Assembly: GCA_041489925.1 (NCBI GenBank)
Contig: JBGPSD010000001.1
Location: forward strand, 102,414 to 166,413
DNA: 64,000 nt
Direction: 5' to 3'
From: Candidatus Nanoarchaeia archaeon
GTDB lineage: Archaea > Nanobdellota > Nanobdellia > Woesearchaeales > ARS49
Position 1 is the stretch's first letter. Every line of letters begins with the position of its first letter. The notes beneath the pieces were generated by a model. The model worked only from the letters and a program-made list of their open reading frames with translations. It was not told where the DNA came from and made no database searches. This document shows positions 30,210-54,445 of this stretch, in pieces. The position numbers and the translations under genes were made by a program.

Positions 30210-30713
30210 TTATTGAAAACGTTCCAAATTGAGGAATGCCTTTACCTGGTCCTTGATCTGGATGGTGTCGTTCCTGACGCTTGTGATGAAGCCGCTGAGG
30301 AACGGCATGTAAACATACTTCTCAAACAGGGAGCGAAGGACGTAAAATGCAGGCTGGGTTTCCCACTTGTGCTCGTAGTCTGTCTCAAGCCAGGAATCAA
30401 AAGTCATTATGACCTTTCCCTTCTGCATCTTTTTCTTGTGGCCGTCCTTTGCCACCTCAACATCAGTAAGGTTGTGCGCTGTTGCGTGAATCCTGATAAC
30501 GCTCTTTGCGTAGTCAGAAAACTTTTTGAACGGCTCAAGCTCAAGCTCAACATGCTTGCCTGATTTTGTGACGCTTTCCTGTGCGCGCTTCTCAATCGGC
30601 ACATATCCCTTGTCGCCCATCCACCCATAAAGAAGCTTGTAGAGCTCCTTCAGGCTGAAAATTCCCTCATAAACCACCTGTTCGTGTTCAATAACCGGGC
30701 GCTTCTCAACCAT
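30210..30713 (-). CDS. unassigned family, tandem paralogue A (167 aa)
   Basis: Start trimmed to MVEKRPV, which overlaps the stop of paralogue B by 1 nt (TGATG). Shares a block pattern with B and C (see finding). Confidence 0.6.
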   Translation of the reverse strand: MVEKRPVIEHEQVVYEGIFSLKELYKLLYGWMGDKGYVPIEKRAQESVTKSGKHVELELEPFKKFSDYAKSVIRIHATAHNLTDVEVAKDGHKKKMQKGKVIMTFDSWLETDYEHKWETQPAFYVLRSLFEKYVYMPFLSGFITSVRNDTIQIKDQVKAFLNLERFQ

Positions 30714-31213
30714 CAGCTCACCTCTATTCCAAGCACGTCCTTGATTACCGCAAGCAGTTCTACCTGCTTCAGCATAAGGTCGTCCTCCCAAACGTCCTTG
30801 ATAGTCTGCCGTATAATATACTTTTGATAAATGTCATGCAACCACTGGACAAACTTATTACCCTTAAACCTCTTTGCGTAGTCAAACTGGAGCTCACCGC
30901 CAACTTCGGCATTGATATACCCCTCGTCAAGCTTGTGCTTCTCACCGTCCCTGATAACCTCAACTTCCTTAAGGTCACGAATCCACATGTGAACAGTAAT
31001 TACATACCTGACATATTCTGTTATGTCACGCTCTGTCTTTATCTCATACTCAGCCTCGTCGGCCTTGAGCTTGTATTTTGGCGCGTGAAACTTGTAACTG
31101 TTGTCATCAAACCATTTCTGGATAGAGCTGACAAGCAGCTTGTGGTTAAAAGTGCCCTTGTGCTTCAGATAAAGCGTCGGGGACGGGTCACTGGGGGCAG
31201 CATGCTCTACCAT
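30713..31213 (-). CDS. unassigned family, tandem paralogue B (166 aa)
   Basis: Alignable by eye with A and C: an N-terminal helix, the central DLKEVEVIRDGEKHKL block, and a C-terminal long helix. Confidence 0.6.
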   Translation of the reverse strand: MVEHAAPSDPSPTLYLKHKGTFNHKLLVSSIQKWFDDNSYKFHAPKYKLKADEAEYEIKTERDITEYVRYVITVHMWIRDLKEVEVIRDGEKHKLDEGYINAEVGGELQFDYAKRFKGNKFVQWLHDIYQKYIIRQTIKDVWEDDLMLKQVELLAVIKDVLGIEVS

Positions 31214-31285
31214 ATGCAGAGAAGTCCTTGGCTGCCTATTTAAATTTTATCTCGCCACAGGCTCAACTGCGCACAAACCAGCCAA

Positions 31286-31891
31286 TCAGCCTTCAGGAAT
31301 GCGCTTTGGCCAGAACTCAGGCAATTCCTTTGTCGGCAGGTATGTCTCAATGGTCAGGAATGTGTTGATTGCGTCGCGGAACTGCATTGCCTCGCGGTAC
31401 AGCTCCTTTTCAAGCATGTCAAACTGCTGTTTCCACATCCTGCCGTAAAGAAGCTTCTTCAAGTCCTTGAACGCGCTCTTTTCCATTATTTTGTCAGGGT
31501 CGCGGACAAGGTTTGCTGAGACATTGGCCTCTGCCTCGCCCTGCTGCGCCTTGTATTTCTTGCCTGAGATAATGACTTCAACATCCTTCAGTGTGAGGAT
31601 GTGCACGTCAATATTAAGGTCAAAGCGCCAGAGCTGGTTGTTAGCCAGCGGGAACTTTGTGGGGCGCCAGCGCCACCATATTTCCTTTCCTCCATGCGAA
31701 GGACCTTCCTTGTGCAGGTAATATTTTTCAGGAAACTTGTAATCATCCCTTGTTGCGTAGCCGTGCTCAATAAGCCACTCGTGCATAAGCAAATACAGGT
31801 TGTTCAGGTGGAAAACATCCTTCCTGTTGACAGTATAAGAGGTAACGGTCTTGTAATCTGTGCCGGTATACCTGTGCCTGATCAGCGCCAT
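31286..31891 (-). CDS. unassigned family, tandem paralogue C (201 aa)
   Basis: Start trimmed to MALIRHRY (31891), about 27 nt downstream of a TTTTAAA box. This removes the overlap with the divergent GTPase gene. Shares LKDVEVIISGKKYK and the other family blocks. Confidence 0.55.
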   Translation of the reverse strand: MALIRHRYTGTDYKTVTSYTVNRKDVFHLNNLYLLMHEWLIEHGYATRDDYKFPEKYYLHKEGPSHGGKEIWWRWRPTKFPLANNQLWRFDLNIDVHILTLKDVEVIISGKKYKAQQGEAEANVSANLVRDPDKIMEKSAFKDLKKLLYGRMWKQQFDMLEKELYREAMQFRDAINTFLTIETYLPTKELPEFWPKRIPEG

Positions 31892-31970
31892 TCGCCCAAA
31901 CAATTGGCAAACAGGTTTAAAAGGCTTTCTACACAAAAGTTTATAAGAGAACGCCTTGAAATAACCTGTT

Positions 31971-33161
31971 ATGCAAGTCGGAGTGGTGGGCAAGGCAAAC
32001 GTTGGAAAAAGCACTTTTTTCAAGGCGCTAACATTAGCTGAAGTGCTGATCGCAAACTATCCGTTCGCGACAATTGAGCCGAACAAGGGGTGTGCATTTG
32101 TCAGGGTGCCGTGCGCTGACAGGGACTTTGGAGTGCAGTGCAATCCGCGGTTTGGGCACTGCATGAATGGCACACGCTTTGTCCCTGTTGAGGTTATTGA
32201 CGTAGCAGGGCTTGTCCCTGGCGCGCACCTCGGAAAGGGAATGGGAAACCAGTTCCTTGACGACCTGAGGCAGGCGCACGCTCTTATTCACATTGTTGAC
32301 ATGGCAGGCTCGACAAACGAGAAAGGGGAGCCAATAGAGCCGGGCAAATATGACCCTGCATTTGACGTCAAATTCCTTGAGGTTGAGCTTGACTTCTGGT
32401 ACCTCTCGATTTTGAAGAAAGGCTGGGACAAGCTTTCAAGGAACCTCCAGCATGAGCACAAGGAAATCGCAAAAGCGCTCGCAACACAGCTCTGCGGCCT
32501 TGGCGTGACAGAGGCAATGGTTGTTGATGCGATAAAGCAATTGAAGCTCAGCGAAAACACAACCGCCTGGACAGAGGAACAAATGCTCCAGATGGCAACA
32601 ATACTCAGAAAGAAAACAAAGCCAATGCTCATTGTGGCAAACAAAATGGACATCCCCTGCGCAAAAGCAAACCTTGAAAGGGTGAGCAAGCAGTTCCCTG
32701 AATACATTTTCGTGCCCTGCTCTGCAGAAAGCGAGCTCGCACTGAAAGAAGCGTCCAGAAAAGGGCTTATTGAGTACCTGCCTGGCAGCAAGGAGTTCAA
32801 ACCGACAGGGCAATTGCAGCCTGCCCAGGAAAAAGCCCTGAATTTCATCAAGGCAAACGTCCTTGATGCGCTTGGCTCAACAGGAGTGCAGGACGCAATT
32901 GACACCGCAGTGTTCAAGCTTTTGAATTACATCGCGATTTTCCCTGGCGGAGTGAACAAGCTCTCTGACCAGTTTGGAAATGTCCTTCCTGACTGCTTCC
33001 TCCTGCCACCAGGAAGCACTGCGCTTGATTTTGCAGCAAAAATCCACACAGACCTGGCAAAGAACTTTGTCGCGGCTATTGACGTGAAGACAAAACGCAA
33101 GGTTGGAAGGGAGCACTTATTGAAACACCGCGATGTTGTGGAAATTATGACAAGCAAATGA
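31971..33161 (+). CDS. Obg-like GTPase/ATPase (YchF/DRG-type) with C-terminal TGS domain
   Basis: G1 GKANVGKST, G3 DVAGLV, NKMD, and a C-terminal TGS-like region (GSTALDFAAKIHTDLAKNF). A TTTATAAG box lies about 27 nt upstream. Confidence 0.8.
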   Translation: MQVGVVGKANVGKSTFFKALTLAEVLIANYPFATIEPNKGCAFVRVPCADRDFGVQCNPRFGHCMNGTRFVPVEVIDVAGLVPGAHLGKGMGNQFLDDLRQAHALIHIVDMAGSTNEKGEPIEPGKYDPAFDVKFLEVELDFWYLSILKKGWDKLSRNLQHEHKEIAKALATQLCGLGVTEAMVVDAIKQLKLSENTTAWTEEQMLQMATILRKKTKPMLIVANKMDIPCAKANLERVSKQFPEYIFVPCSAESELALKEASRKGLIEYLPGSKEFKPTGQLQPAQEKALNFIKANVLDALGSTGVQDAIDTAVFKLLNYIAIFPGGVNKLSDQFGNVLPDCFLLPPGSTALDFAAKIHTDLAKNFVAAIDVKTKRKVGREHLLKHRDVVEIMTSK

Positions 33162-33811
33162 ACAGCAAAGAAATAATCAGCAATATCAGGGACATCTTCA
33201 AGAAATTTCCTGTTCCGATAAACCTGCAGAGGCACCTTTTCAAGGTGACTGCTGTCGGCGAGGTGATTGCAGACCACTGGAAAGGCCCTGCGCTTGACAG
33301 GGATGAGCTTGTGGCATTCATGCTTCTCCACGACATTGGCAATCTTGTCAAGTATGATTTCAACCATAAGCTTTACGACGGCGATATTGGGTCTGACATT
33401 GAGGGATGGAAGAAAAAGCAAAAGGAAACAATCGCAAAATACGGCGAAGACGACCTGAAGGCAACGATTGCATTTGCAAAAGAGCTTAATGTTTCCAGCC
33501 GCATGATTGAGCTTTTGGAAGAAAGCCACTTCCACAGGCTCAGGCAAACGCTGGAGAGCAGCGACTGGGTGCTGAAAATCGGGAAATACTCGGATATGAG
33601 GGCTGCGCCGCAGGGAATTGTTTCCGTGAACAGGAGGTTTGATGACCTTGAGAAGCGCTACATCGGCAGGCAAATCGGATTAAGCCTGCCTGATTTTGAG
33701 GAACACAGGAAATTGGCGCTTGAGCTTGAGAAGCAAATCTTTGAAAACACAGACATAACCCCTGAACAGGTTGATGAAAAGGCAATACAGAAATACATTG
33801 ATTCTTACTGA
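33158..33811 (+). CDS. HD-domain phosphohydrolase
   Basis: The H ... HD ... D pattern (LLHDIGNLVKYD) is present. The start overlaps the GTPase stop (ATGA). There is no GYP motif. Confidence 0.7.
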   Translation: MNSKEIISNIRDIFKKFPVPINLQRHLFKVTAVGEVIADHWKGPALDRDELVAFMLLHDIGNLVKYDFNHKLYDGDIGSDIEGWKKKQKETIAKYGEDDLKATIAFAKELNVSSRMIELLEESHFHRLRQTLESSDWVLKIGKYSDMRAAPQGIVSVNRRFDDLEKRYIGRQIGLSLPDFEEHRKLALELEKQIFENTDITPEQVDEKAIQKYIDSY

Positions 33812-34794
33812 TTCACTTTTCCAAATCCGCCTGCCTGCTGGACATCTATAACACCGAGTGCCTTGTCAATTATCAGGAAAGTCCTTGTCTGGTTCTTCCC
33901 ATTGCGCTTTGCGACATACAATGCCTTGTCTGCCTCTTTCAGCAGGGTTTCAGGAGAGACAGAGGCATTAAGGCAGGTTGCAATTCCGATTGATATTGTT
34001 GTCGGAAACTTGTCCTGCACTGTCTCCCTAAGGCGCTCTGCGAAAGAATGCGCGTGGTCGTGCTGGGTTTCAGGCAGTATGATTGTAAATTCCTCGCCGC
34101 CATAGCGCGCAGGAATGTCAATAGCGCGGATGGATGCCCTAAGGAGCTCGCCAAGCTGCTGCAATAACTTGTCGCCTTCAACGTGCCCCTGGGTGTCATT
34201 GAGTTCCTTGAAGTTGTCAAAGTCAAACATAACCAGTGATATCGGCCGCTGGGAGCGGGCTGAGCGCGCAATTTCGTTCTTAAGCGACTCAAGGAAATAC
34301 GCCTTGTTGTAAAGCCCTGTCAATGCATCTGTCATTGCTGAATACTGCGCGTTCTGAAACCTCTGCGCCCTTGCCAAAGCGATTGAGAGCTTGTCAAGAA
34401 GAAGTGAAACAAACTCGGTTGTGTGGCTGACCTGGCCTGCGCCAAGGACAAGCGTTGCAGCATGCTTGCCCTGCACCCTCACAGGAAAGGCAGCCAGCTG
34501 GGCGCGAAGCTGGCTCGCGTCATTAACTTGCATTGTCAATACATCATTTCCCGCATTATTGACCAGCGTGAACGTGTTGTTGGCTGCAACGTGGTTGTGC
34601 AATACCTTGCTTACATCAAGGAATGGCTGGCTTGCAGGAACCTGGGAAACATTTGTGCCATTAACCCACAATGCGCAATGGTCAGGCCTGAAAATCCTGC
34701 TCACAAACTCAGCTGTCTGCTGCAAAAGCTGCTCAACAGTCGTGCCTGAGTTAAGGGAGTCAAGGAACTCAATCACAATGTCTTTCTGGTCCAT
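33805..34794 (-). CDS. GAF-GGDEF diguanylate-cyclase-type protein (intact GGEEF and RxxD I-site)
   Basis: An N-terminal ~150-aa GAF-like sensor, then DALTGLYNKAYF, FDFDNFKELNDTQGHVEGD, RAID-IPARY-GGEEF, SIGIA and ADKALYVAKRNGKN. All canonical GGDEF blocks are present. Confidence 0.88.
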   Translation of the reverse strand: MDQKDIVIEFLDSLNSGTTVEQLLQQTAEFVSRIFRPDHCALWVNGTNVSQVPASQPFLDVSKVLHNHVAANNTFTLVNNAGNDVLTMQVNDASQLRAQLAAFPVRVQGKHAATLVLGAGQVSHTTEFVSLLLDKLSIALARAQRFQNAQYSAMTDALTGLYNKAYFLESLKNEIARSARSQRPISLVMFDFDNFKELNDTQGHVEGDKLLQQLGELLRASIRAIDIPARYGGEEFTIILPETQHDHAHSFAERLRETVQDKFPTTISIGIATCLNASVSPETLLKEADKALYVAKRNGKNQTRTFLIIDKALGVIDVQQAGGFGKVNQ

Positions 34795-34877
34795 ACTGCA
34801 TTAGAAATAACCAGTGTATAAATGGATTATGGTGATAGAACTAATGAAATGAAAATAATAAAATAAAAATTTTCTTC

Positions 34878-35360
34878 TTATTGCACTGTGCAGCAGTAGA
34901 AGTCCTCGTAGCCTACTGGGATTCTTCCTTCACTGCCCACGTTGGGATCTACGCCAGACCTTATGCAGTTGCGCCCCAATGCATTGTTTGCAGTTACACG
35001 CGCCGAGTAAGGCGGGTATGGGCATGCGCTGTCAATAATTGGTCCTGTGCGCTTGTAGTCTGTGTCTAACGTCGGGACAGGAACAGGCGCTCCACCAGTG
35101 TCCTGTATGCGCTCAGGATAGATGTATCCTGCGCCAGCATAGACACGGCCGTCACTATATCTCACAAATCCCTGCGGGTCCTGGTATTGGTCCAGGCCAT
35201 GTGCTATTTCTCCGCCACCGTATACATTCGCCTCAGTGGATGATGCCAACAGGGTCGCATTACCTGCTGCTCCCTTAAAGAGAAGTACAAGTCCGACCAC
35301 TGCTATAACCGCAACAATCCCAAGAATTGCGAATGCAACTCCCTTATTTTCATCTGCCAT
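34878..35360 (-). CDS. N-terminally anchored/secreted Cys-motif protein (family member 1)
   Basis: Start set at MADENKG, with a strong SD AAGAGGTGA 7 nt upstream. KG|VAFAILGIVAVIAVVGLVLLF resembles a class III (pilin-type) or signal-anchor peptide. The C-terminus reads ...EDFYCCTVQ. A T-rich tract follows the stop. Confidence 0.6.
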   Translation of the reverse strand: MADENKGVAFAILGIVAVIAVVGLVLLFKGAAGNATLLASSTEANVYGGGEIAHGLDQYQDPQGFVRYSDGRVYAGAGYIYPERIQDTGGAPVPVPTLDTDYKRTGPIIDSACPYPPYSARVTANNALGRNCIRSGVDPNVGSEGRIPVGYEDFYCCTVQ

Positions 35361-35367
35361 AGTTAAT

Positions 35368-36522
35368 TCACCTCTTTGGTTGTTCATGATTTGATTGATT
35401 AGTATATAAATTTTTGCTCAGGCTGTCGAGGATGCGCTGCCTGAACACAGGCAAGTCTGCAGTGCGCATGTGTGCACCTGCTGCAGGGATGTGCCCTCCG
35501 CCGGCTGCATCCTTCAGCCCTTTGACCGCGTTCTTGAGCAATTCATTCATTTTCACGCGCTGGCTCTGGCACCTTCCTGACACCTTGATTACATCCTTGT
35601 GCATTTCCAGGATGATTATGACCCAGTCATTGAACTGGGGCTTGAGCGAGAGGACTGTTGAAACAGGGGAGTTAATGTGGTACTTCGGACTGATTTCATA
35701 CCAGATGAGCTTGAGCTTTTCATTCTTTTCCATCAGCTTGGGGGCGTCCTTAATCCACTTGCTGATTTCTTTTTCAAACGACTGCCTTATCGTGCTAAGT
35801 TTTTTGTCTTTCAGTATGCCCTGCGGTTCTTTTGACTTCATCAGGGCATCAAAGCAGTAGTTGATGTTTTTGTCGTCAATAATCATCGCGGCGAGAAGGA
35901 ACTCAGCAACTTCCCCGAGGTCTGTCCTGAACCAGTCTTTGGGATTGGGCCTGAGCTTTTGCTTTTCAAACACCTTTGACAGGAAATCAGGCCAGGCGCG
36001 TCCTGCCATATCGCCAATCAGCCCGACAGACGCAATCCATGCCGAGTCATCCATATCTGCGTGCCTGTTCGCAAGGTCGTATGCAAGCTTGCTTGCAGTG
36101 TACCGTGAGGGGTCAATGTCGTCAGCGAGCAGCTGGGGCATTGCCAGCACAGTGCGTTCAGATGTTATGTCCTTGAAAAATGTGTGATGGTCTATTATCA
36201 GGATTTCGCATTGCTTCTCAAGCTTTTTGACAGCAACTGCATCCTCGTGGACAGGAAGGTCTGTGAATATTACTTTGGAGATTTTTTTCTTTTTCAGGGC
36301 GTCTGCAATTTCCGGATGGATTGTGTTGCGCGAGCCGCGGGGCGGGGAGGCATGGAAATCAGCAGGCTTGCCGCGCAGGCGCTCGATGAGCCTGCTGAGC
36401 ACGACTGCGGAGCATACGCCGTCAGGGTCTGAGTCGTGTATTATCGCGATTTTTTCTTCAGGGGAAAAGGACATGAGGAAGCGGTCAATCCGCTCCCACT
36501 GTTCGGGATTCTTGGGAATCAT
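35368..36522 (-). CDS. DHH/DHHA1 family phosphoesterase (NrnA/RecJ-like)
   Basis: Motifs HDSDPDGVCS (I/II), IIDHH (III) and GGGHIPAAGA (DHHA1). 384 aa. Confidence 0.85.
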   Translation of the reverse strand: MIPKNPEQWERIDRFLMSFSPEEKIAIIHDSDPDGVCSAVVLSRLIERLRGKPADFHASPPRGSRNTIHPEIADALKKKKISKVIFTDLPVHEDAVAVKKLEKQCEILIIDHHTFFKDITSERTVLAMPQLLADDIDPSRYTASKLAYDLANRHADMDDSAWIASVGLIGDMAGRAWPDFLSKVFEKQKLRPNPKDWFRTDLGEVAEFLLAAMIIDDKNINYCFDALMKSKEPQGILKDKKLSTIRQSFEKEISKWIKDAPKLMEKNEKLKLIWYEISPKYHINSPVSTVLSLKPQFNDWVIIILEMHKDVIKVSGRCQSQRVKMNELLKNAVKGLKDAAGGGHIPAAGAHMRTADLPVFRQRILDSLSKNLYTNQSNHEQPKR

Positions 36523-36543
36523 TGGGCATCACAGCCCGCTGCA

Positions 36544-36589
36544 GAATAAAAAAGGGGCGCGTACCAGAATAAGAATTGGCGATACGCGC
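36544..36589 (-). terminator. GC-rich hairpin + T6 run (minus strand); the T-run could double as the TATA box of the DHH gene
   Basis: The minus strand reads GGCGCGTA-loop-TACGCGCC followed by CCTTTTTTATT. It sits 29 nt after the stop of 36618..37436 and about 25 nt before the ATG at 36522. Confidence 0.45.
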
Positions 36590-36617
36590 CTGGTGAGAGA
36601 GGGGGATGAATGTGATT

Positions 36618-37436
36618 TCATGCTGCACTGCTCGTGTATGGTTTTTTAGGAGAGTGATGACCGGCCGAATAATGGTGGCCGGTCTTTTGCAGGATGAATT
36701 CATGTATGCCCTGCAATGAGATGGCACGGTCGCGCCCTTCGTCCTTTGCGGCATCAAGCGCGTATTCCGCACCGTGATACAATTCTTTCAGTGTCGCTGC
36801 TGTCTCTGTGGTTGCAATTCCAATACTCATTGTGATTGGGATCTGGCCGCTTTTTGCAAGATAAGGATTAGTCTTCAATGCATTGCGCAGGCGCCCGGCA
36901 ACATTTAATGCGTTGCCAGAGCTAGCGCCATATAACGCAATGCCGAATTTATCTCTGAATTCCCGGCCCACTGTCTCCACTGCTTCTTCATGCATTGTGC
37001 AAATCAAGTCAATGTTTCCATCGATTGGCCCCATTCTTCTTTCAATATTGTGATTTGTTGGTTTTGAACGGATATTATCGTAAATCACTTGTGCGGCATG
37101 CGCGATAACACGGGCTGCGACTTCATCGCCGTAAGCGTCCTTTACTTTTTTGAAATGGTCAAGGTCTGCCTGAAGGTATGCGACAGGCAGGTGATTGGCA
37201 TTGGCGTGCGCAATCATTGACCTGAATTTTTCCTCAAAAACACCGCGTACATACATCTTGGTGATGCTGTCGCGCTCCAATCTGGCGATTACTGCTTTTG
37301 CCTCATCGAGCGATTTGGGTTTGGGGCTATAGAAAAAGGGTTCTGCTCCTTGGGGCAATATTTCAGCTGCGACCACTAGATCGCCTAAGTCTAACAGCTC
37401 TTGTTCGAAGTTAATCACCTTTTGTTGTGGTGTCAT
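36618..37436 (-). CDS. degenerate GGDEF-like (nucleotidyl-cyclase palm) domain protein
   Basis: Residues ~85-255 align by eye with the GGDEF protein in this window (DSITKMY.RGVF / ADLDHFKKVKDAYGDE / ..RDKF / ITMSIGIA / AEYALDAAKDEGRDR). The signature position reads RRMGPIDGN rather than RYGGEEF, and there is a ~35-aa insertion. Confidence 0.55.
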   Translation of the reverse strand: MTPQQKVINFEQELLDLGDLVVAAEILPQGAEPFFYSPKPKSLDEAKAVIARLERDSITKMYVRGVFEEKFRSMIAHANANHLPVAYLQADLDHFKKVKDAYGDEVAARVIAHAAQVIYDNIRSKPTNHNIERRMGPIDGNIDLICTMHEEAVETVGREFRDKFGIALYGASSGNALNVAGRLRNALKTNPYLAKSGQIPITMSIGIATTETAATLKELYHGAEYALDAAKDEGRDRAISLQGIHEFILQKTGHHYSAGHHSPKKPYTSSAA

Positions 37437-37526
37437 GTTTTTGGTATGAACAACAACTTGGTATGGGAATGTGCCCGGGCATTAGCGGTTGTGTTTTGGT
37501 GCTCAGCAACCGGGTCTATGTGTCCA

Positions 37527-37565
37527 CACGCGTGCGTTTGTGCACCTTTGCTTCACACGCGCGTG
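37527..37565. promoter_or_regulatory. two GC palindromes (CACGCGTG, CACGCGCGTG) in a divergent intergenic region
   Basis: Perfect palindromes at 37527-37534 and 37556-37565, with GTGCAC between them. They lie in the 241-nt spacer between 37436 (minus-strand start) and 37678 (plus-strand start). Confidence 0.35.
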
Positions 37566-37624
37566 CCCAATGGGTTATTGTTCATTGTTAGGTATTCTTA
37601 GGCAAAAGAATTATATATACATAT

Positions 37625-37658
37625 CGTACTTACACTACGATAAGTACGTTAAGTACGT
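37625..37658 (+). promoter_or_regulatory. operator-like repeats just downstream of a TATA box
   Basis: TATA ATTATATATA is at 37610-37619. It is followed by the inverted repeat CGTACTTA-n8-TAAGTACG and a tandem copy TAAGTACGT (37641-49 and 37650-58), then SD GAGGTGAT and the ATG at 37678. Confidence 0.45.
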
Positions 37659-37677: not shown

Positions 37678-38622
37678 ATGCATATTCGCAGGTTAGTGAA
37701 GGCAGGACAGGCATCGCACACTATTTCCCTTCCAAAAGAATGGCTGGACAAGAACAAGCTTGGGAAGGGCGCAACACTGTACATCCACGAAAAGTCTGAC
37801 TCAGAGCTTCTAATAACGCCACACCTTGCAGGACATTCCACAAGCGAACAAAAGGCAGTAACAATACAGGTTGACGGCAAGGAGCTTGACACAATCCAGC
37901 GCGAGATAACCGCGGCTTATGTCAACAATGCGAGCAACATCGACCTTATCGGAGAAACAATCTCAAAGCACGCAAAAGAAATCCGCAGGATGCTGCATGA
38001 CTTTGTCGCGCTGGAAATCTCAGAGCAGACTGCAAACAGGATTTCAGCAAAAGATTTGCTTAACCTGCAGGAAATATCAGTTGACAAGAGCATCAAGCGC
38101 ATGGACGTGATTGTAAGGACAATGCTGCAGGACTGCAAAATAACTGTCACCGGAAAGGATTTGAGCGAGAGCGTGATGTTCAGGGATTATGACGTGAACA
38201 GGCTTTATTTCCTGCTTGCGCGGCTTTTGAAAAGCTCGCTGAGCAATCCCAGCATGGCAGCCCAGCTGCAGATTTCGCCTCCAAAAGTCCTGGGCAAATG
38301 GATGCTCGTGCATTATGTTGAGCAGCTCGCAGACGCTGTCAAGGGGCTGTGCGCAGACTGCGGAACTCTTGACGCAAAACAGCGCAAGAATGTCTCCGCA
38401 CTGCTCGGGCAGCTTGAGCAGGATTACCTTGACACAATGAAGGCAGTGCACGAGAAAAACGCAAAGCTCGCTGATGAAATCGCGCGAAGGAGGATTGAGC
38501 GCCAGATGTCCTGCGCTTCCCTGAGCGCAGAACTGCCGAATGCGGCGCACGGCTGCAGCACAATATCATCATTGCTGTCAGACATCGCGAGGCTTGTTAT
38601 AGACGAAGAAAAGGAAAATTAA
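37678..38622 (+). CDS. AbrB/SpoVT-domain + PhoU-like regulator
   Basis: MHIRRLVKAGQASHTISLPKEWLDKNKLGKGATLYI is a SpoVT/AbrB swapped-hairpin N-terminus. The rest is helical PhoU-like repeats, as in the archaeal 'phosphate uptake regulator' fusion. The upstream 63 codons in the track are spurious. Confidence 0.75.
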   Translation: MHIRRLVKAGQASHTISLPKEWLDKNKLGKGATLYIHEKSDSELLITPHLAGHSTSEQKAVTIQVDGKELDTIQREITAAYVNNASNIDLIGETISKHAKEIRRMLHDFVALEISEQTANRISAKDLLNLQEISVDKSIKRMDVIVRTMLQDCKITVTGKDLSESVMFRDYDVNRLYFLLARLLKSSLSNPSMAAQLQISPPKVLGKWMLVHYVEQLADAVKGLCADCGTLDAKQRKNVSALLGQLEQDYLDTMKAVHEKNAKLADEIARRRIERQMSCASLSAELPNAAHGCSTISSLLSDIARLVIDEEKEN

Positions 38623-39044
38623 ACAAGTGTGGTCGGCTGCTGGAGGTTCTGGAACACCGGCGCAGCAAGGCACTTTGTCTGCGCGTCAAGCTTTGCCTGA
38701 TACGCGCATTCTCCTTCGCGGCTCTGCCTGCCAGGGTTAAGGTACTTGCACTGGCGCCAGACAAAAGTCTCAAATGTGGCAGGCCTTTGCTGTGCAAGCG
38801 CACAGATTACATCATCAATAGGCATAAGCTGGGTGTGCGGGCTAGGCTGGTTGATAATCGTGTTGCCGGGCAACTGCGGGTAAACAGGATGCTGGGCAGT
38901 AGGGTCGTCGGATATCTGCGTGTCACCACGCTGAGCCATAGAAAACATCCCTGTCGATGATGACGAAAACACAATCGCAAGACCGCCAACTGCAACAAGA
39001 AGCACAAATCCAAGGATAAGCGCCATAACATGCTTGTCTTCCAT
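38619..39044 (-). CDS. N-terminally anchored secreted protein (family member 2, divergent)
   Basis: Start MEDKHV lies about 27 nt downstream of a TTTATATAG box (leaderless). It has the hydrophobic anchor MALILGFVLLVAVGGLAIVF and four Cys in the C-terminal half. Its stop overlaps the PhoU-like gene stop by 4 nt. Confidence 0.5.
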   Translation of the reverse strand: MEDKHVMALILGFVLLVAVGGLAIVFSSSSTGMFSMAQRGDTQISDDPTAQHPVYPQLPGNTIINQPSPHTQLMPIDDVICALAQQRPATFETFVWRQCKYLNPGRQSREGECAYQAKLDAQTKCLAAPVFQNLQQPTTLV

Positions 39045-39140
39045 GGTTAAGTTGTTTTGCCTCACAGCTATATAAACATTTTCATTAGTAGGAGAAAATC
39101 AAAATTAAAAAGAATTAGAAAAATAAAAAAATTAAGCGCC

Positions 39141-39596
39141 TTAGCGCTCAATTACGTATGGTCCGACCGGAACGCCAACATCGCGCTCGTTTGGAAGTCC
39201 GCCGAAATCATTGAATGGGGGTCCCTTGACAAGCGACTCGTCTCCGTGGAGAACGCTCTTGTCGTTCACTGTCGGGCAGCAGCAGTACAGGTTGTCATCA
39301 CCTGACACTAGCACGCCCGGATATCTCGGGTCCTCATAACCGGTCTTGAAGCAGCTCTTGCCGAACGCCTTCTCAAAGTCGTCCTTCTGGTAGAGTGCAT
39401 CTGCCTCTGTTGGTCCCATAAGCACAGGTGTGCACGGGCTGTCACACATCGGTTGTCCGCCAAGCGCAGGAACATTAAGGATGTTTCCTGTCTTTGCAGC
39501 CTTACCGCCTGACAGCAGCAGGACAAGTCCTACCACTGCGATAATTGCGACTATGCCCAGAATCACGAGACTCAGGTTTCTGCCTTCTTCAGCCAT
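39141..39596 (-). CDS. N-terminally anchored Cys-motif protein (family member 3)
   Basis: SD AAGAGGTGA 7 nt upstream. The anchor VILGIVAIIAVVGLVLLL matches 16 of 18 residues of member 1 (about 75% DNA identity there by eye). Contains the LYCCCP motif. Confidence 0.6.
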   Translation of the reverse strand: MAEEGRNLSLVILGIVAIIAVVGLVLLLSGGKAAKTGNILNVPALGGQPMCDSPCTPVLMGPTEADALYQKDDFEKAFGKSCFKTGYEDPRYPGVLVSGDDNLYCCCPTVNDKSVLHGDESLVKGPPFNDFGGLPNERDVGVPVGPYVIER

Positions 39597-39676: not shown

Positions 39677-39991
39677 TCAGGCTGCATCAGGGTAGCCTAC
39701 TGTGGCGCTTTGAGCCCATTCCCCAACAGGAAGGCAGCAGTTGTTTGTCCTGAAGCAGCACGGCGTTATCCCATCATAGCCGAAGACGCACTTGTGGCCG
39801 AGCCTGAGATATGACTGCAGTTCTCTGACATAAACCCCTTTGCCCTCTGCATACACCGGCGCAGAGCCGACCGGGCAAATGCCTGTTGTTACTGCGCCTG
39901 TTGGCGAGAACGCACCGAAAAAATACATCAGGATAATAAGCGCGGCAATCGCGGCAGCCGCAACAATGCAAACGCACCAGACTCCTTTCAT
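39677..39991 (-). CDS. small Cys-rich membrane-anchored protein (family member 4, divergent)
   Basis: 104 aa with an N-terminal hydrophobic helix, then PCCFRTNNCCLP. The start overlaps the upstream Zn-ribbon gene stop by 4 nt. Confidence 0.5.
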   Translation of the reverse strand: MKGVWCVCIVAAAAIAALIILMYFFGAFSPTGAVTTGICPVGSAPVYAEGKGVYVRELQSYLRLGHKCVFGYDGITPCCFRTNNCCLPVGEWAQSATVGYPDAA

Positions 39992-40377
39992 TTCTTGTCC
40001 TTCCGCATCCGCCTGAAGGTTTCCGCGACATCAATAATGTATTTTCCTTCCGCGAGCTTGAAAATCAAAGGCTCTCCCTTGAACAGCTGGACAAGGTCAA
40101 GCTCGTACTTGCCAGGCTTCAATACCCTGACGCTTTCCAGGTCAAGGACCACAGGCTCTTCAGGCTCCTCAACACCAAGAACATTGTAAACATCCTGCTC
40201 AATCTGCTTGCGCTCCTCAATAGTTACCGGCGGCGCCTGCTCTGCGGCTTTCTGCAGCTTTTCAAGGCGCTCTTTCTTTATGAAAAAGAACAGTTTCGCG
40301 CCGCACGAGCATCCCTTGAGGATTACCTCATTGCCATCGTCATAAAATGTATTGCAGCGCACGCACTGGTGTGGCAT
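39988..40377 (-). CDS. Zn-ribbon protein (archaeal DUF2072-like, by recollection)
   Basis: C-x2-C ... C-x-C (CVRCNTFY...GCSCG), then an acidic linker and a beta-rich C-terminus. Third gene of a GTPase operon that I recall as conserved in archaea. Confidence 0.65.
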   Translation of the reverse strand: MPHQCVRCNTFYDDGNEVILKGCSCGAKLFFFIKKERLEKLQKAAEQAPPVTIEERKQIEQDVYNVLGVEEPEEPVVLDLESVRVLKPGKYELDLVQLFKGEPLIFKLAEGKYIIDVAETFRRMRKDKK

Positions 40378-40380
40378 GAT

Positions 40381-40770
40381 TCACCTTTTTCTCTTCTTTT
40401 TTTCAGAAGTGAGCAGCTCTATCTTGTTCGGGTCCTTCTTGATTGCCTTGACAACGCTTGCAGGCCCGATAATCGTAAGCCCCTGCCTGTCTCCGAGAAC
40501 CGCGCCTATCATGTCATTCTTTAACTTCTGGAATCCTGACAGCTGGTTGTTTGCCGGATTGATGACCGCGAGCTCAATTCCCTGGAACTCCTTGTTGATT
40601 TCCTCCATCGTGACCTTGATGAGCTCTGTCTCCTCCTCTTTTCTCAGCCTTCCCTGAAGCAAGACAATCTTGTCCTGCTTTGCGATATTGAGGAGCTTCC
40701 TTATCCTTCCGATTGAGCTCAATCCCTCGATTTCCGTGTAAGGCAACAGCTGCAGCGTAACCATTTTCAT
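40381..40770 (-). CDS. conserved archaeal protein (DUF2073-like, by recollection)
   Basis: 129 aa, in the middle of the GTPase / Zn-ribbon operon. 4-nt overlap with the GTPase gene. Confidence 0.6.
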   Translation of the reverse strand: MKMVTLQLLPYTEIEGLSSIGRIRKLLNIAKQDKIVLLQGRLRKEEETELIKVTMEEINKEFQGIELAVINPANNQLSGFQKLKNDMIGAVLGDRQGLTIIGPASVVKAIKKDPNKIELLTSEKKKRKR

Positions 40771-41411
40771 CTCACCAGTTCAAACACTTTTTCGTACAGT
40801 TCCTTGACATTCTTGCCGTACTTTGCCGAAATTCCGAGGACTTCGTACTGCGGGAATGCCGCCTGCACTTTCTTCATGCTTGCTTTCTTGAGGTCAACCT
40901 TGTTGGCGACTATTAGGACAGGAATGTCCCTTGCCTGAAGGTTGCCGATAATTGTGACATTAACCTGCGAGTATGGGTCCTGGGTTGCGTCAAGCACCAC
41001 CATGACAGCGTCCATTTCGTCAAGCCACTTGATTGCGTCAATGACGCCTTTTGTCGCTTCCCTTGCGCGCTTCTTTGCCTTTGCCTCTGACATCCCTGCC
41101 TTGAGGAATTCCTCGTAGTCAATCCTTGTCGCGATGCCGGGGGTGTCGACAAGGTTGAACATGAGCTCCTTGCCGTCCTTGCTCCTGATTGAGATTTGCT
41201 CCTTGATCTGGATTTCCCTTGTTTCGTGCGCCAGCGGGCTGACTTTGCCAAGTTCCTCGCCCACCCAGTCTATGCAGATTTTGTTGGCAAGGGTTGTCTT
41301 TCCAGAATTTGGCGGGCCGTACAAGCCGAGCTTCAGGTCCTTTCGGCTACCAAAGAATTCCCGCACGAACCTGTTGAAGATTTGCTTTACAAAACTGAAT
41401 GCCACAACCAC
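40767..41411 (-). CDS. small GTP-binding protein
   Basis: G1 GPPNSGKTT, G3 DTPG, G4 NKVD. About 210 aa. The start codon is uncertain: GTG at 41411 or 41405, preceded by AAGGTG. Confidence 0.85.
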   Translation of the reverse strand: MVVAFSFVKQIFNRFVREFFGSRKDLKLGLYGPPNSGKTTLANKICIDWVGEELGKVSPLAHETREIQIKEQISIRSKDGKELMFNLVDTPGIATRIDYEEFLKAGMSEAKAKKRAREATKGVIDAIKWLDEMDAVMVVLDATQDPYSQVNVTIIGNLQARDIPVLIVANKVDLKKASMKKVQAAFPQYEVLGISAKYGKNVKELYEKVFELVR

Positions 41412-51116: not shown

Positions 51117-51128
51117 ACGAGGTGTCAA

Positions 51129-52346: not shown

Positions 52347-52402
52347 AGTTGAGTTCTAGATACTACGCACCTTTATAAACCGCAAAAACATGATTTGTAG
52401 GC

Positions 52403-53620: not shown

Positions 53621-53659
53621 TATTGACCTCTTTTTCGCCTTTTTCCGTCAGATTAGTTC

Positions 53660-54157: not shown

Positions 54158-54280
54158 ACATAGGGAAAAAGCGAGGATATACTTTAATTTTGTGGTGCTC
54201 TTGGGGAGTGGTCAATTATATGATAAAATATATATTTTCGGATATAATATGTTTAAAAAACACAAAATATATAAAATAAT

Positions 54281-54445
54281 ATGTTGAAACAGGGGTTTAG
54301 AGTGAAAAAACCGATATCTGCAACGATAGAGGAAGACCTGATTACCTGGATAGGCCGGACGGTCTCGAAGGACAGGAAAAAGTACCGCAACAAGTCGCAC
54401 CTCATAGAGGTCGCGCTGGAAAGGATGCGCGAGGAGGAGGACTAA
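54281..54445 (+). CDS. ribbon-helix-helix (CopG-like) protein, 47-54 aa
   Basis: Not in the ORF track (under 60 aa). KKPISATIEEDLITWIGRTVS...NKSHLIEVALERM fits strand-helix-helix. The start is either ATG 54281 or the in-frame GTG 54302. The stop TAA abuts the ATPase ATG (TAAATG). Confidence 0.6.
   Translation: MLKQGFRVKKPISATIEEDLITWIGRTVSKDRKKYRNKSHLIEVALERMREEED

What the first reader, a model, noticed from the sequence alone, without database searches (positions are those of the whole stretch)
33158..37436. Cyclic-dinucleotide-type signalling neighbourhood (GAF-GGDEF, DHH/DHHA1, degenerate GGDEF, HD) inside an archaeal backbone
The minus-strand run reads as follows. A degenerate GGDEF-like gene (36618..37436) is followed by a hairpin and T-run, then a DHH/DHHA1 phosphoesterase (35368..36522; HDSDPDG, DHH, GGGH motifs). 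Seven nucleotides later comes an SD-led Cys-motif anchored protein (34878..35360), then a GAF-GGDEF gene with its own TATA box (33805..34794). The GAF-GGDEF 3' end overlaps by 7 nt the 3' end of an HD-domain gene (33158..33811), which is ATGA-coupled to a YchF-type GTPase. The GGDEF domain looks fully catalytic: FDFDNFKELND metal site, a GGEEF signature, and an RxxD I-site exactly five residues upstream (RAID-IPARY-GGEEF, the same spacing as the textbook PleD RESD-LLGRY-GGEEF). All surrounding information-processing genes are archaeal. GGDEF/EAL/PilZ signalling is generally regarded as essentially absent from Archaea. No EAL, HD-GYP or PilZ is visible in these 64 kb. Any turnover or receptor role would therefore fall to the adjacent DHH/DHHA1, the HD protein or the degenerate paralogue. 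The DHH/DHHA1 family includes pGpG/pApA and c-di-AMP phosphodiesterases. The functional linkage is inferred from adjacency only.
Basis: partly seen in the sequence, partly recalled or inferred. Interest (0 to 1): 0.8.

Follow-up and report, generated by a model that had tools for sequence, protein, structure and literature searches.

The report
Archaeal diguanylate cyclase beside YchF
A tiny DPANN archaeon (Woesearchaeota type) carries a genuine, conserved and apparently active enzyme for making the bacterial signal c-di-GMP, but the neighbouring genes proposed as its partners are mostly ordinary housekeeping genes that only sit next to it in this sub-lineage.

Summary
The contig is archaeal (GatD/E, OapABC, Orc1/Cdc6, RFC, CDC48); relatives are labelled Woesearchaeota.

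Gene 33805-34794 is a canonical GAF-linker-GGDEF diguanylate cyclase. Every catalytic and guanine-reading residue is invariant in 77 archaeal orthologues. Its I-site is RAID, as in PleD. dN/dS is 0.15.

Its lineage sits tail-to-tail with the archaeal YchF-like GTPase in about 45 species-level genomes, on contigs up to 697 kb. Contamination is excluded.

The "signalling neighbourhood" reading is only partly supported:
- The DHH/DHHA1 gene is an archaeal RecJ/Cdc45-family protein found across DPANN, mostly without a GGDEF and often on another contig.
- The HD protein belongs to a large stand-alone HD family found in unrelated contexts.
- The second GGDEF is a decaying copy of a short paralogue that is still intact (GGEEF) in one relative.

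No EAL, HD-GYP, PilZ, MshEN or riboswitch occurs in the 64 kb.

The literature holds only a one-sentence mention of GGDEF hits in DPANN. This is a new member of a known kind, of moderate interest.

Side finding: an undescribed, conserved structured RNA-like unit lies upstream of the RecJ-like gene.

The parts
33805..34794 (-). GAF-linker-GGDEF sensor diguanylate cyclase, 329 aa. GAF covers about aa 20-140, the linker helix aa 122-154, GGDEF aa 153-302. The I-site is R223-A-I-D226 and the signature GGEEF is at 232-236.
   Evidence: Pfam and NCBIfam. PDB sequence matches to PleD and WspR around 1e-30. Catalytic residues invariant in 77 orthologues. AF2 model pLDDT 89.8; Foldseek hits IsPadC 4e-19 and Dcsbis 7e-18. 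dN/dS 0.15.
34817..34822 (-). TTTATA box 22 nt upstream of the GGDEF start codon, preceded by a T-rich tract after the small-protein stop. This suggests a separate transcription unit.
   Evidence: Sequence read directly. The promoter role is inferred.
31971..33161 (+). Archaeal YchF-related GTPase (PRK09602 type, with a TGS domain). It is the conserved convergent neighbour of the GGDEF gene.
   Evidence: NCBIfam 546 bits. A GGDEF lies convergent downstream of YchF in 30 of 80 Woesearchaeal YchF loci, and in nearly all with YchF identity of 65% or more.
33158..33811 (+). Stand-alone HD phosphohydrolase, 217 aa, with H26, H58-D59 and D146 invariant. It overlaps YchF by 4 nt and the GGDEF 3' end by 7 nt. 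It is an accessory gene of the window's subclade.
   Evidence: Pfam HD 24.3 bits. Alignment A5. Same slot in L001, L163, L164, L165 and L172. Large family in unrelated contexts. AF2 pLDDT 90; weak Foldseek top hits to PgpH and HDOD proteins.
34878..35360 (-). Small N-terminally membrane-anchored Cys-rich protein (C...C...CC), translationally coupled to DHH. It is paralogous to the proteins at 38619-39065 and 39141-39596.
   Evidence: The Shine-Dalgarno overlaps the DHH stop codon. Alignment A8. No Pfam family. dN/dS 0.13.
35368..36522 (-). DHH/DHHA1 phosphoesterase of the archaeal RecJ/Cdc45 family, with all DHH motifs intact. It is a DPANN-wide housekeeping gene.
   Evidence: Pfam. NCBIfam nearest match is archaeal RecJ, below cut-off. 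Alignment A1. Profile vs PDB. Distribution across DPANN.
36538..36624 (-). 3' module of a conserved structured RNA-like unit: C-string 36591-36605, hairpin GGCGCG...CGCGCC 36556-36590, T-run 36548-36553.
   Evidence: About 85 nt nearly invariant in 8 genomes. Fold z-score -2.96. Covariance-model hits occur only directly upstream of DHH. No Rfam match.
36618..37436 (-). Degenerate stand-alone GGDEF paralogue, 272 aa. GGEEF has become FRDKF, the guanine-binding N is now K and the D is now A. It carries a ~28-aa insertion at the I-site position.
   Evidence: Pfam 82.6 bits. Alignment A6 shows the L159 copy with intact GGEEF and the L164 copy with GGDEL. Same slot in L159, L161 and L164. dN/dS 0.42.
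37437..37625 (-). Consensus archaeal promoter (GTATATATAATTCTTTTG, about 37604-37620) and a ~165-nt conserved 5' region of the same RNA-like unit. Here it lies upstream of the degenerate GGDEF ORF.
   Evidence: Sequence compared with L004. The same promoter is present in 9 short-form loci. Transcription is inferred.
37681..38622 (+). AbrB/MazE-like plus PhoU-domain regulator, divergent from the RNA-like unit and DHH. The mechanical ORF starts at 37489; the likely true start is M65.
   Evidence: Pfam. PhoU(-)|DHH(+) is conserved in Woesearchaeal loci.

Best explanation
The window comes from a DPANN archaeon of the Woesearchaeota type. Gene 33805-34794 encodes a canonical sensor diguanylate cyclase.

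Inferred mechanism:
- An N-terminal GAF-like domain, with an unknown ligand, and a long linker helix control dimerisation of a C-terminal GGDEF domain.
- The GGDEF dimer condenses two GTP into c-di-GMP.
- The product feeds back on an RxxD I-site identical to PleD's RAID.

Shown here:
- The gene belongs to one archaeal GGDEF lineage that is fixed tail-to-tail beside the archaeal YchF-like GTPase.
- That lineage has swapped N-terminal sensor modules (GAF, PocR-GAF, or an unknown ~270-aa module).
- It is under purifying selection as strong as its housekeeping neighbours.

The other genes named in the finding are not a dedicated module:
- The DHH/DHHA1 gene is the lineage's RecJ/Cdc45-family nuclease. 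It is tied to a PhoU-type regulator and an upstream structured RNA-like unit, and it abuts the GGDEF only in this subclade.
- The HD gene is a member of a large stand-alone HD family that was inserted into the YchF transcription unit in this subclade.
- The second GGDEF is a decaying copy of a short paralogue.

The phosphodiesterase and the receptors for c-di-GMP remain unidentified.
For: Domain and fold:
- GGDEF 153 bits, TIGR00254 164 bits.
- End-to-end alignment to PleD, WspR and GcbC.
- Full-length AF2 model pLDDT 89.8. It matches GAF/PHY-linker-GGDEF cyclases IsPadC and Dcsbis at about 1e-18, and c-di-GMP-bound GGDEF domains at rmsd 1.3-2.7 A.

Residue conservation in 77 of 77 orthologues: D191, D193, F195, N199, G203, H204, G207, D208, R230, GGEEF 232-236 and K296 are invariant. 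The I-site R is kept in 63 of 77 and the D in 66 of 77.

Selection: dN/dS 0.15, against 0.09-0.13 for neighbours.

Genuine archaeal residence:
- Archaeal markers on the same contig.
- The same gene order in independent assemblies on contigs up to 697 kb.
- Normal GC, GC3 and codon usage.

Linkage:
- YchF linkage in 30 of 80 YchF loci. Together with the loci this gives about 45 species-level genomes.
- A single clade in the NJ tree.

DHH is RecJ-family and DPANN-wide. The HD family is broad. The paralogue is decaying.
Against: - No enzymatic data exist. c-di-GMP has never been detected in any archaeon, although only Haloferax and Sulfolobus were tested (PMC8646023, PMC10249747).
- No EAL, HD-GYP, PilZ, MshEN or c-di-GMP riboswitch occurs in the 64 kb, so a complete circuit is not shown.
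- The GAF Pfam score is marginal (25.7 against 22.4), and pTM of the full-length model is 0.56, so the domain arrangement is uncertain.
- Bootstrap support for archaeal GGDEF monophyly is only 38 of 100.
- The taxonomic placement rests on the labels of related MAGs, some of which are clearly wrong ('Methanosarcinales', 'Binatia').
Confidence: 0.72

Rival explanations
1. The degenerate GGDEF, DHH/DHHA1, small protein, GAF-GGDEF and HD genes together form a self-contained cyclic-dinucleotide module. DHH and/or HD would degrade c-di-GMP or pGpG, and the degenerate GGDEF would act as receptor.
For: - All five genes are adjacent in the window, and the full set recurs in L001 and L164.
- DHH catalytic motifs and the HD tetrad are intact.
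- The best, though weak, fold matches of the HD model are the c-di-AMP phosphodiesterase PgpH and HDOD proteins.
- Archaeal RecJ homologues can degrade short RNAs. This rests on general knowledge of the MjaRecJ2 and PfRecJ entries; their activity was not examined here.
Against: - DHH occurs in about 70 DPANN loci, mostly without a GGDEF, and lies on separate contigs from the GGDEF in at least 6 MAGs.
- DHH is closest to RecJ/GAN, not to NrnA, GdpP or TmPDE.
- The GGDEF has its own TATA box, while DHH is coupled to the small protein instead.
- HD relatives lie in unrelated contexts, and the family has at least 1,783 clusters. Foldseek gave no match at E <= 0.001.
- The degenerate GGDEF lacks an RxxD I-site and is under relaxed selection.
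Confidence: 0.15
2. The GGDEF protein is real but does not make c-di-GMP as an intracellular messenger. It could make another product (cGAMP-type 'Hypr' activity, or pppGpG). It could act as a nucleotide-binding regulator. It could produce c-di-GMP aimed at a bacterial or archaeal host of this presumed episymbiont.
For: - No recognisable receptor or phosphodiesterase occurs in the 64 kb.
- GGDEF domains with other activities exist (Hypr GGDEFs cited in PMC10249747; the ATPase GGDEF of GdpP/YybT cited in PMC8646023).
- DPANN archaea have reduced genomes and are thought to depend on other cells (PMC9938205).
Against: - The guanine-specifying Asp (D208, equivalent to PleD D344), which is replaced in Hypr enzymes, is invariant in 77 of 77 orthologues.
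- GGEEF, both metal ligands and a PleD-identical product-inhibition site are kept. That is the full signature of a c-di-GMP synthase with feedback control.
Confidence: 0.1
3. Artefact: the GGDEF-bearing stretch is bacterial contamination or a chimeric assembly.
For: - Galperin et al. 2018 raised this concern for archaeal GGDEF hits in draft genomes (PMC5847659).
- The tetranucleotide correlation of the region is at the low end of the window's range (0.894 against a mean of 0.938).
Against: - The same gene sits between the same archaeal genes in dozens of independent assemblies from different studies, on contigs up to 697 kb.
- Gene 3' ends overlap by 7 nt with an archaeal operon.
- GC, GC3 and codon usage are normal.
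- A clean series of orthologues runs from 34% to 98% identity, tracking YchF divergence.
Confidence: 0.02

Closest known systems
Dcsbis (PA2771) of Pseudomonas aeruginosa, a GAF-GGDEF diguanylate cyclase (PDB 4zmu)
   Same: It has the same two-domain GAF-linker-GGDEF layout and a similar length (341 against 329 aa). The Foldseek match spans 339 columns at E 7e-18.
   Different: It is bacterial, with only about 23% identity overall. The GAF ligand is unknown in both cases here. The archaeal gene is embedded in archaeal housekeeping synteny.
PleD (Caulobacter) and WspR (Pseudomonas) GGDEF domains (PDB 1w25, 3bre, 3i5a)
   Same: GGEEF, both metal ligands, the guanine-reading N and D, R366- and K442-equivalents, and an I-site five residues upstream. 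The I-site tetrapeptide RAID is identical to PleD's.
   Different: The input domain is GAF, not REC. No two-component partner is present.
Methanocella arvoryzae GGDEF protein CAJ37382, cited in 2018 as the only archaeal GGDEF (PMC5847659)
   Same: It is a GGDEF domain encoded in an archaeal genome.
   Different: It was not compared here because its sequence was not retrieved. The present family is a multi-species, syntenic Woesearchaeal lineage rather than a singleton.
Archaeal RecJ/Cdc45 family: P. furiosus RecJ (5x4h), T. kodakarensis GAN (5ghr), M. jannaschii RecJ2 (6tvv). Comparison for the DHH gene.
   Same: DHH motifs I-IV and the DHHA1 GGGH motif. Profile E-values are 1e-16 to 1e-15.
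   Different: It is shorter (384 aa against 430-500). It scores far below the NCBIfam equivalog cut-offs (75.8 against 360). It forms a DPANN-specific subfamily.
PgpH HD domain (c-di-AMP phosphodiesterase, 4s1b) and HDOD proteins (3i7a, 3hc1). Comparison for the HD gene.
   Same: An all-helical HD fold with the H...HD...D tetrad. These are the top Foldseek ranks, and some family members give weak Pfam HDOD hits.
   Different: The matches are weak (E 0.011-0.05, TM about 0.42). There is no 7TM receptor module and no GYP motif. Family relatives occur in unrelated contexts and fused to PPDK_N/PEP-utilizer modules.

Membership tests
GGDEF diguanylate cyclases (PF00990 / TIGR00254) | Domain model score above the curated cut-off | tested here: met
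   PF00990 153.2 bits (cut-off 23.8). TIGR00254 163.7 bits (cut-off 37.4)..
GGDEF diguanylate cyclases (PF00990 / TIGR00254) | GG[D/E]EF active-site signature and metal-binding Asp (PleD D327 equivalent) | tested here: met
   GGEEF 232-236, D191 and D193 are invariant in 77 of 77 orthologues. They align to PleD.
GGDEF diguanylate cyclases (PF00990 / TIGR00254) | Guanine-specific substrate residues (PleD N335 and D344 equivalents) | tested here: met
   N199 and D208 are invariant in 77 of 77. The mapping to PleD numbering rests on the alignment and general knowledge of PleD.
GGDEF diguanylate cyclases (PF00990 / TIGR00254) | RxxD inhibitory site five residues upstream of GG[D/E]EF | tested here: met
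   RAID-IPARY-GGEEF against PleD RAID-LPCRY-GGEEF. R is kept in 63 of 77 and D in 66 of 77 in the family.
GGDEF diguanylate cyclases (PF00990 / TIGR00254) | Synthesis of c-di-GMP from GTP | not testable with these tools
   Requires recombinant protein and LC-MS.
GAF sensor domain | GAF fold N-terminal to the output domain | tested here: met
   PF01590 25.7 bits against a 22.4 cut-off, which is marginal. The AF2 model shows an alpha/beta domain plus a long linker helix, and matches the GAF-GGDEF cyclase Dcsbis over 339 columns. The ligand is unknown.
Complete c-di-GMP signalling circuit (cyclase + EAL/HD-GYP phosphodiesterase + PilZ/MshEN/riboswitch receptor) | An EAL or HD-GYP phosphodiesterase | tested here: not met
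   None in about 70 window ORFs. The HD protein lacks the GYP motif. Only 64 kb of the genome could be examined.
Complete c-di-GMP signalling circuit (cyclase + EAL/HD-GYP phosphodiesterase + PilZ/MshEN/riboswitch receptor) | A known receptor (PilZ, MshEN, degenerate GGDEF with I-site, GEMM riboswitch) | tested here: not met
   No PilZ or MshEN (same calls). The T4P-like ATPase has only the T2SSE domain. Rfam finds only tRNAs. The degenerate GGDEF lacks RxxD.
NrnA/GdpP/Pde2-type DHH-DHHA1 cyclic-dinucleotide or pGpG phosphodiesterases | Closest subfamily is NrnA, GdpP or TmPDE rather than RecJ | tested here: not met
   Profile vs PDB: RecJ, GAN and RecJ2 at 1e-16 to 1e-15; TmPDE at 4e-4; a 325-aa chain deposited only as 'DHH family' at 0.02.
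NrnA/GdpP/Pde2-type DHH-DHHA1 cyclic-dinucleotide or pGpG phosphodiesterases | Phyletic or positional association with the cyclase | tested here: not met
   About 70 DPANN loci carry the DHH and only about 9-11 have a GGDEF nearby. In at least 6 MAGs the two genes are on separate contigs.
Archaeal RecJ/Cdc45 (GAN) family | DHH motifs I-IV and the DHHA1 GGGH motif; profile similarity to solved archaeal RecJs | tested here: met
   H29, D32, D34, D88, DHH 111-113, D171 and GGGH 342-344 are invariant. PDB profile hits.
Archaeal RecJ/Cdc45 (GAN) family | NCBIfam equivalog score (RecJ_archaeal or GAN_nuclease) | tested here: not met
   75.8 bits against a 360 cut-off; 35.4 against 850. It is a member of the superfamily branch, not of the curated equivalogs.
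HD-GYP c-di-GMP phosphodiesterases | HD plus the HHExxDGxGYP signature | tested here: not met
   Only H26, H58-D59 and D146 are conserved, with no GYP. HD-GYP structures rank 15 or lower in Foldseek, with E of 0.38 or worse.
Rfam RNA families (for the element upstream of DHH) | A match to any of 4,227 covariance models | tested here: not met
   No match at gathering score in the window or in 10 related loci. Only chance-level hits at E up to 10.

The most novel reading that the evidence does not exclude
Woesearchaeal DPANN archaea run a working c-di-GMP circuit built without any of the bacterial EAL, HD-GYP or PilZ parts. A vertically inherited, YchF-linked sensor cyclase would make the signal. 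Turnover and reception would fall to non-canonical proteins. Candidates are the subclade-specific HD hydrolase, the RecJ-like DHH nuclease acting on pGpG, the short second GGDEF, the small anchored Cys-rich proteins, or the type-IV-pilus-like machinery. The circuit might control attachment to host cells.
Probability: 0.3. Interest if true: 0.85.

Novelty: new member of a known kind. Interest (0 to 1): 0.55.

Why it matters
Textbooks and recent reviews treat c-di-GMP signalling as bacterial. It was not detected in the two archaea tested, and archaeal GGDEF hits have been suspected of being contamination.

This work shows that one GGDEF lineage is a bona fide archaeal gene:
- It is fixed in position.
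- It is catalytically intact.
- It is under purifying selection across dozens of Woesearchaeal species.

The question "does any archaeon use c-di-GMP?" therefore becomes a directly testable one. A specific 329-aa protein can be expressed, and there is a short list of candidate partners.

The analysis also removes a tempting but unsupported inference: that the adjacent DHH, HD and degenerate GGDEF genes form the rest of the pathway.

Tried and rejected
1. The DHH gene as a dedicated phosphodiesterase. Rejected on subfamily and on distribution and unlinked contigs.
2. My interim view that the HD family is tiny and GGDEF-specific, based on 7 hits in the word-indexed search. Overturned by the exhaustive profile search (1,783 clusters) and by unrelated contexts.
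3. My interim view that HD and the degenerate GGDEF occur only in the window and L001. Corrected by metagenome contigs L159, L161, L163-L165 and L172.
4. A remnant of the degenerate GGDEF in L002-L004. No protein-level trace was found; it is a clean indel with both flanks conserved.
5. An MshEN or PilZ domain in the type-IV-pilus-like ATPase. Absent.
6. The conserved element upstream of DHH as a small ORF. Rejected, because no ATG or reading frame is conserved.
7. The same element as a C/D-box sRNA. No consistent D box.
8. The same element as an ORB-like origin element. It is single-copy and strand-locked to DHH.
9. The same element as a known Rfam family. No match.
10. A donor lineage for the GGDEF. 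Bacterial best hits are 45-52% identical over the GGDEF domain only and come from many phyla. The NJ tree has weak support (38 of 100). No donor could be named.
11. The context of P0088, which nests in the archaeal clade. Uninformative.

Full report
**1. Observation**

Pfam gives the following:
- 33805-34794(-): GGDEF 153.2 bits and GAF 25.7 bits.
- 36618-37436(-): GGDEF 82.6 bits, split into two stretches.
- 35368-36522(-): DHH 34.6 and DHHA1 35.7 bits.
- 33158-33811(+): HD 24.3 bits.
- 34878-35360(-): no family.

NCBIfam calls 31971-33161 a YchF-related GTPase at 546 bits.

The fine details also hold:
- The GGDEF and HD 3' ends overlap by 7 nt.
- YchF and HD overlap by 4 nt.
- A GAGGTGA Shine-Dalgarno overlaps the DHH stop codon, 7 nt before the small protein's ATG.
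- A TTTATA box lies 22 nt upstream of the GGDEF start, after a T-rich tract.
- A strong hairpin followed by a T-run lies between the second GGDEF and DHH.

There is one factual slip. PleD's I-site region reads RAID-LPCRY-GGEEF, not RESD-LLGRY-GGEEF. The archaeal RAID-IPARY-GGEEF is therefore even closer to PleD than claimed.

**2. The contig is archaeal and not chimeric**

The window encodes these archaeal or archaeal-type markers:
- GatD and GatE.
- CDC48.
- An archaeal-type GlyRS.
- A non-discriminating AspRS.
- Deoxyhypusine synthase.
- An Orc1/Cdc6-like protein.
- RFC.
- TruD.
- The origin-associated OapB and OapC proteins with their GTPase.

Composition is flat across the window. The GGDEF, HD and DHH genes have normal GC, GC3 and codon usage. 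The region's tetranucleotide correlation is 0.894, which is low but inside the range of other windows (minimum 0.887).

The closest relatives are MAG contigs mostly labelled Candidatus Woesearchaeota or Nanoarchaeota. Some are mislabelled 'Methanosarcinales' or 'Binatia'.

**3. The GAF-GGDEF gene**

Sequence and residue conservation:
- It aligns end to end with solved active cyclases (GcbC, WspR, PleD) at 1e-30 to 1e-33.
- In 77 full-length archaeal orthologues (33-100% identity), every catalytic position is invariant. These are both Asp of the DxD metal site, F195, N199, G203-H204, G207-D208, R230, GGEEF and K296.
- The RxxD I-site is kept in 63 of 77 (R) and 66 of 77 (D) sequences.
- D208 is the residue that is replaced in cGAMP-making 'Hypr' GGDEFs. 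Its invariance argues for GTP specificity.

Structure:
- An AlphaFold model built from 42 orthologues has pLDDT 89.8.
- It shows an alpha/beta GAF-like domain, a long helix (residues 122-154) and a GGDEF domain.
- Foldseek's best full-length matches are the phytochrome-linked cyclase IsPadC (4e-19) and the GAF-GGDEF cyclase Dcsbis/PA2771 (7e-18 over 339 columns).
- Isolated c-di-GMP-bound GGDEF domains superpose at 1.3-2.7 A.

Selection: on the only unsaturated pair, dN/dS is 0.15. Neighbouring housekeeping genes give 0.09-0.13.

**4. Where the gene lives**

In 16 archaeal loci found through the GGDEF protein, the surrounding 12 kb is collinear. The order is:
- OapA-like GTPase, OapB, OapC.
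- Small anchored proteins.
- PhoU-type regulator on the opposite strand.
- DHH, small protein, GGDEF.
- YchF on the opposite strand.
- Three paralogous unknown proteins.

Two reciprocal scans then separated the blocks.

Through the DHH alignment:
- About 70 DPANN loci carry this DHH subfamily. They include Woese-, Pace-, Iain- and Nanohalarchaeota and the complete AR10 genome.
- Only about 9-11 of them have a GGDEF within 5 kb.
- Several keep Oap...PhoU(-)|DHH(+) with nothing GGDEF-like downstream.

Through YchF:
- 30 of 80 Woesearchaeal loci have a GGDEF convergent just downstream of YchF. This holds for nearly all loci with YchF identity of 65% or more.
- Most of those have no DHH nearby.
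- In at least six MAGs the PhoU-DHH block and the YchF-GGDEF block are on different contigs: L097/L189, L112/L182, L103/L190, L110/L180, L100/L176 and L105/L231.

The GGDEF's constant partner in position is therefore YchF. The DHH adjacency in the window is a subclade-specific juxtaposition of two older blocks. Taken together, searches give about 45 species-level genomes with the gene.

The N-terminal module varies:
- GAF, 329 aa.
- An unknown ~270-aa module, 441 aa total.
- GAF, 467 aa.
- PocR-GAF, 492-523 aa.

All YchF-linked GGDEF domains fall in one clade of an NJ tree. Bootstrap support is only 38 of 100. Synteny is therefore the stronger argument for a single acquisition followed by vertical descent.

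**5. The DHH/DHHA1 gene**

- All DHH motifs and GGGH are invariant, so it is probably an active enzyme.
- A profile of 12 orthologues hits archaeal RecJ/Cdc45-family structures: PfRecJ 1.2e-16, MjaRecJ2 6.4e-16, GAN 1.2e-15.
- It hits bacterial RecJ at 4e-8. The nanoRNase/PDE-type TmPDE scores only 4e-4, and a 325-aa chain deposited only as 'DHH family' scores 0.02.
- NCBIfam's nearest models are archaeal RecJs, well below equivalog cut-offs.
- It sits next to origin-associated genes and is translationally coupled to the small anchored protein, not to the GGDEF.

It is best read as the lineage's RecJ-like nuclease. A side activity on pGpG cannot be excluded, but nothing here points to it.

**6. 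The HD gene**

- The family keeps H26, H58-D59 and D146, plus N62, K65, R148 and R160. It has no GYP motif.
- The word-indexed search found only 7 relatives, five of them in the same YchF-to-HD slot facing the GGDEF. That first suggested a GGDEF-specific family.
- The exhaustive profile search overturned this. It found 1,783 representative clusters at E <= 1e-3 and 646 at <= 1e-30.
- Most are ~220-aa stand-alone proteins. Some are C-terminal domains of 700-1,500-aa proteins with PPDK_N, PEP-utilizer and PRTase-CE modules.
- Three close stand-alone relatives lie in unrelated contexts.
- The AF2 model has pLDDT 90. Its top Foldseek ranks are the PgpH HD domain (a c-di-AMP phosphodiesterase) and HDOD proteins. 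These matches are weak: E 0.011-0.05, TM about 0.42, and none at E <= 0.001.
- In other subclades the same slot holds a C39-like peptidase or nothing.

The HD gene is a candidate worth an assay. It is not an inferred partner.

**7. The second GGDEF**

- It has only two close relatives among 5.8 billion proteins. Both are in the same slot between PhoU and DHH. L164 has a further copy.
- The L159 copy keeps every catalytic residue, including GGEEF. The L164 copy reads GGDEL.
- The window and L161 copies have lost the guanine-binding N and D, the GH, and GGEEF, which now reads FRDKF.
- All copies share a ~28-aa insertion where an I-site would be, and none has RxxD.
- dN/dS is 0.42.
- L002-L004 and L087 lack the gene as a clean indel.

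The window's copy is a decaying version of a short, once-active paralogue. A receptor role is possible but unsupported.

**8. What the hairpin and T-run really are (side finding)**

Conservation:
- The ~85 nt before DHH are almost invariant in eight genomes whose DHH proteins are only 71-75% identical.
- More distant Woesearchaeal loci keep the same layout: an ATGA-like motif, a C-string, a GGCGCG...CGCGCC hairpin with an AUUCU-like loop motif, and a U-run.
- There are compensatory changes, for example GGCACG/CGTGCC in L105.

Further upstream:
- There is a second hairpin whose sequence differs between lineages but always pairs perfectly. It is strong in 20 of 22 lineages; 19 of them have at most 6 of 200 shuffles doing as well.
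- There is also a consensus archaeal promoter, AAGTATATATAAATCTTTTG.

Distribution:
- A covariance model of the 3' module finds the element only directly upstream of DHH in loci with the Woesearchaeal PhoU-DHH arrangement.
- It finds none in other DPANN DHH loci, and none in YchF-GGDEF loci lacking DHH.

What it is not:
- Rfam has no match.
- A small-ORF reading fails, because no start codon or reading frame is conserved.

In the window, the promoter and about 165 nt of the 5' part lie upstream of the degenerate GGDEF ORF, and the 3' module lies downstream of it. The ORF therefore sits inside a unit that is non-coding elsewhere. This is an undescribed structured RNA, or a leader of the RecJ-like gene. 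It is independent of the GGDEF.

**9. Comparison with the literature**

- Galperin et al. 2018 knew one archaeal GGDEF and questioned the others as possible contamination (PMC5847659).
- Romling 2022 wrote that archaeal GGDEF proteins 'need to be confirmed in archaeal contigs' (PMC10086821).
- A 2023 review states that c-di-GMP has not been detected in any archaeon (PMC10249747).
- Braun et al. 2021 noted in one sentence that BLAST finds more than 300 GGDEF hits in archaea, many from Asgard and DPANN MAGs (PMC8646023).
- A groundwater study counted diguanylate cyclase genes in ultra-small prokaryotes without separating archaea (PMC9938205).
- I found no analysis of this family in the searchable library.
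- NCBI and JGI already annotate members as 'GGDEF domain-containing protein'.

**10. Verdict**

- The 'neighbourhood as signalling module' part is not supported.
- The enzyme is a canonical member of a known family in an unusual host lineage, so it is a new member of a known kind.
- Interest is 0.55. It makes an old question testable, but the presence of such genes has been noted before, and no new mechanism is evident.

Noticed in passing
window 36538-36624 (-) and 37437-37625 (-); also L097:4794-4975, L004:5830-6265, L005:3500-3940: A conserved structured RNA-like unit lies upstream of the RecJ-like DHH gene in Woesearchaeal loci. It consists of a consensus promoter, several hairpins (one covarying strongly), a C-string, a terminal GGCGCG/CGCGCC hairpin and a U-run. 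About 85 nt are nearly invariant among 8 genomes. There is no Rfam match. It is single-copy and strand-locked to DHH. It could be an ncRNA, or a leader or attenuator.
   Followed up: partly
window 39988-41411 (-); GC-skew table: An OapA-like GTPase, OapB and OapC ('origin-associated proteins') lie 2.5 kb from the locus. Cumulative GC skew peaks at about 36-40 kb. An Orc1/Cdc6-like gene is 34 kb away, at 3049-4122. The region may be near a replication origin.
   Followed up: no
window 34878-35360, 38619-39065, 39141-39596, 39677-39991 (all -): A family of small proteins has an N-terminal hydrophobic anchor (…ILGIVAVIAVVGLVLL…) and conserved C-terminal cysteines (C…C…CC). It has no Pfam family and is conserved across Woesearchaeal loci. 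In L179, two copies sit directly upstream of the GGDEF gene, with no DHH present.
   Followed up: partly
window 30210-32023 (-): Three tandem paralogous proteins of unknown function (193, 166 and 245 aa; no Pfam family) are conserved next to YchF in nearly all Woesearchaeal loci examined.
   Followed up: no
window 50520-58875: A type-IV-pilus/archaellum-like ATPase (759 aa, T2SSE domain only, with a ~300-aa unannotated N-terminus) and a 717-aa membrane protein are preceded by six consecutive ORFs with no Pfam family. This is possibly a pilus locus. No MshEN or PilZ domain is present.
   Followed up: partly
L177, L180, L182, L186 (about 5654-6270, -): In another Woesearchaeal subclade, the slot between YchF and the GGDEF gene holds a ~204-aa C39-like cysteine peptidase instead of the HD gene. 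The slot appears to be a hotspot for accessory genes.
   Followed up: partly
P0200, P0220, P0227, P0228 (relatives of the HD protein): The HD family also occurs as the C-terminal domain of 700-1,500-aa proteins that carry PPDK_N, a PEP-utilizer swivel domain and, in one case, a PRTase-CE module. The architecture is unexplained.
   Followed up: no
L001 (CAYGVI010000003.1), L094 (DATILO010000051.1), L179 (JACQIC010000067.1) and many 'TPA_asm' loci: The taxonomic labels of several public MAGs carrying this archaeal DPANN-type synteny are evidently wrong or inconsistent ('uncultured Methanosarcinales', 'Candidatus Binatia bacterium', 'Aenigmatarchaeota').
   Followed up: no
L015:6170-6958 (-): A Nanoarchaeia locus that lacks PhoU and DHH carries a second, 262-aa GGDEF gene (GGDEM) on the opposite strand. 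It groups with bacterial REC-GGDEF proteins in the NJ tree. This may be an independent acquisition.
   Followed up: no
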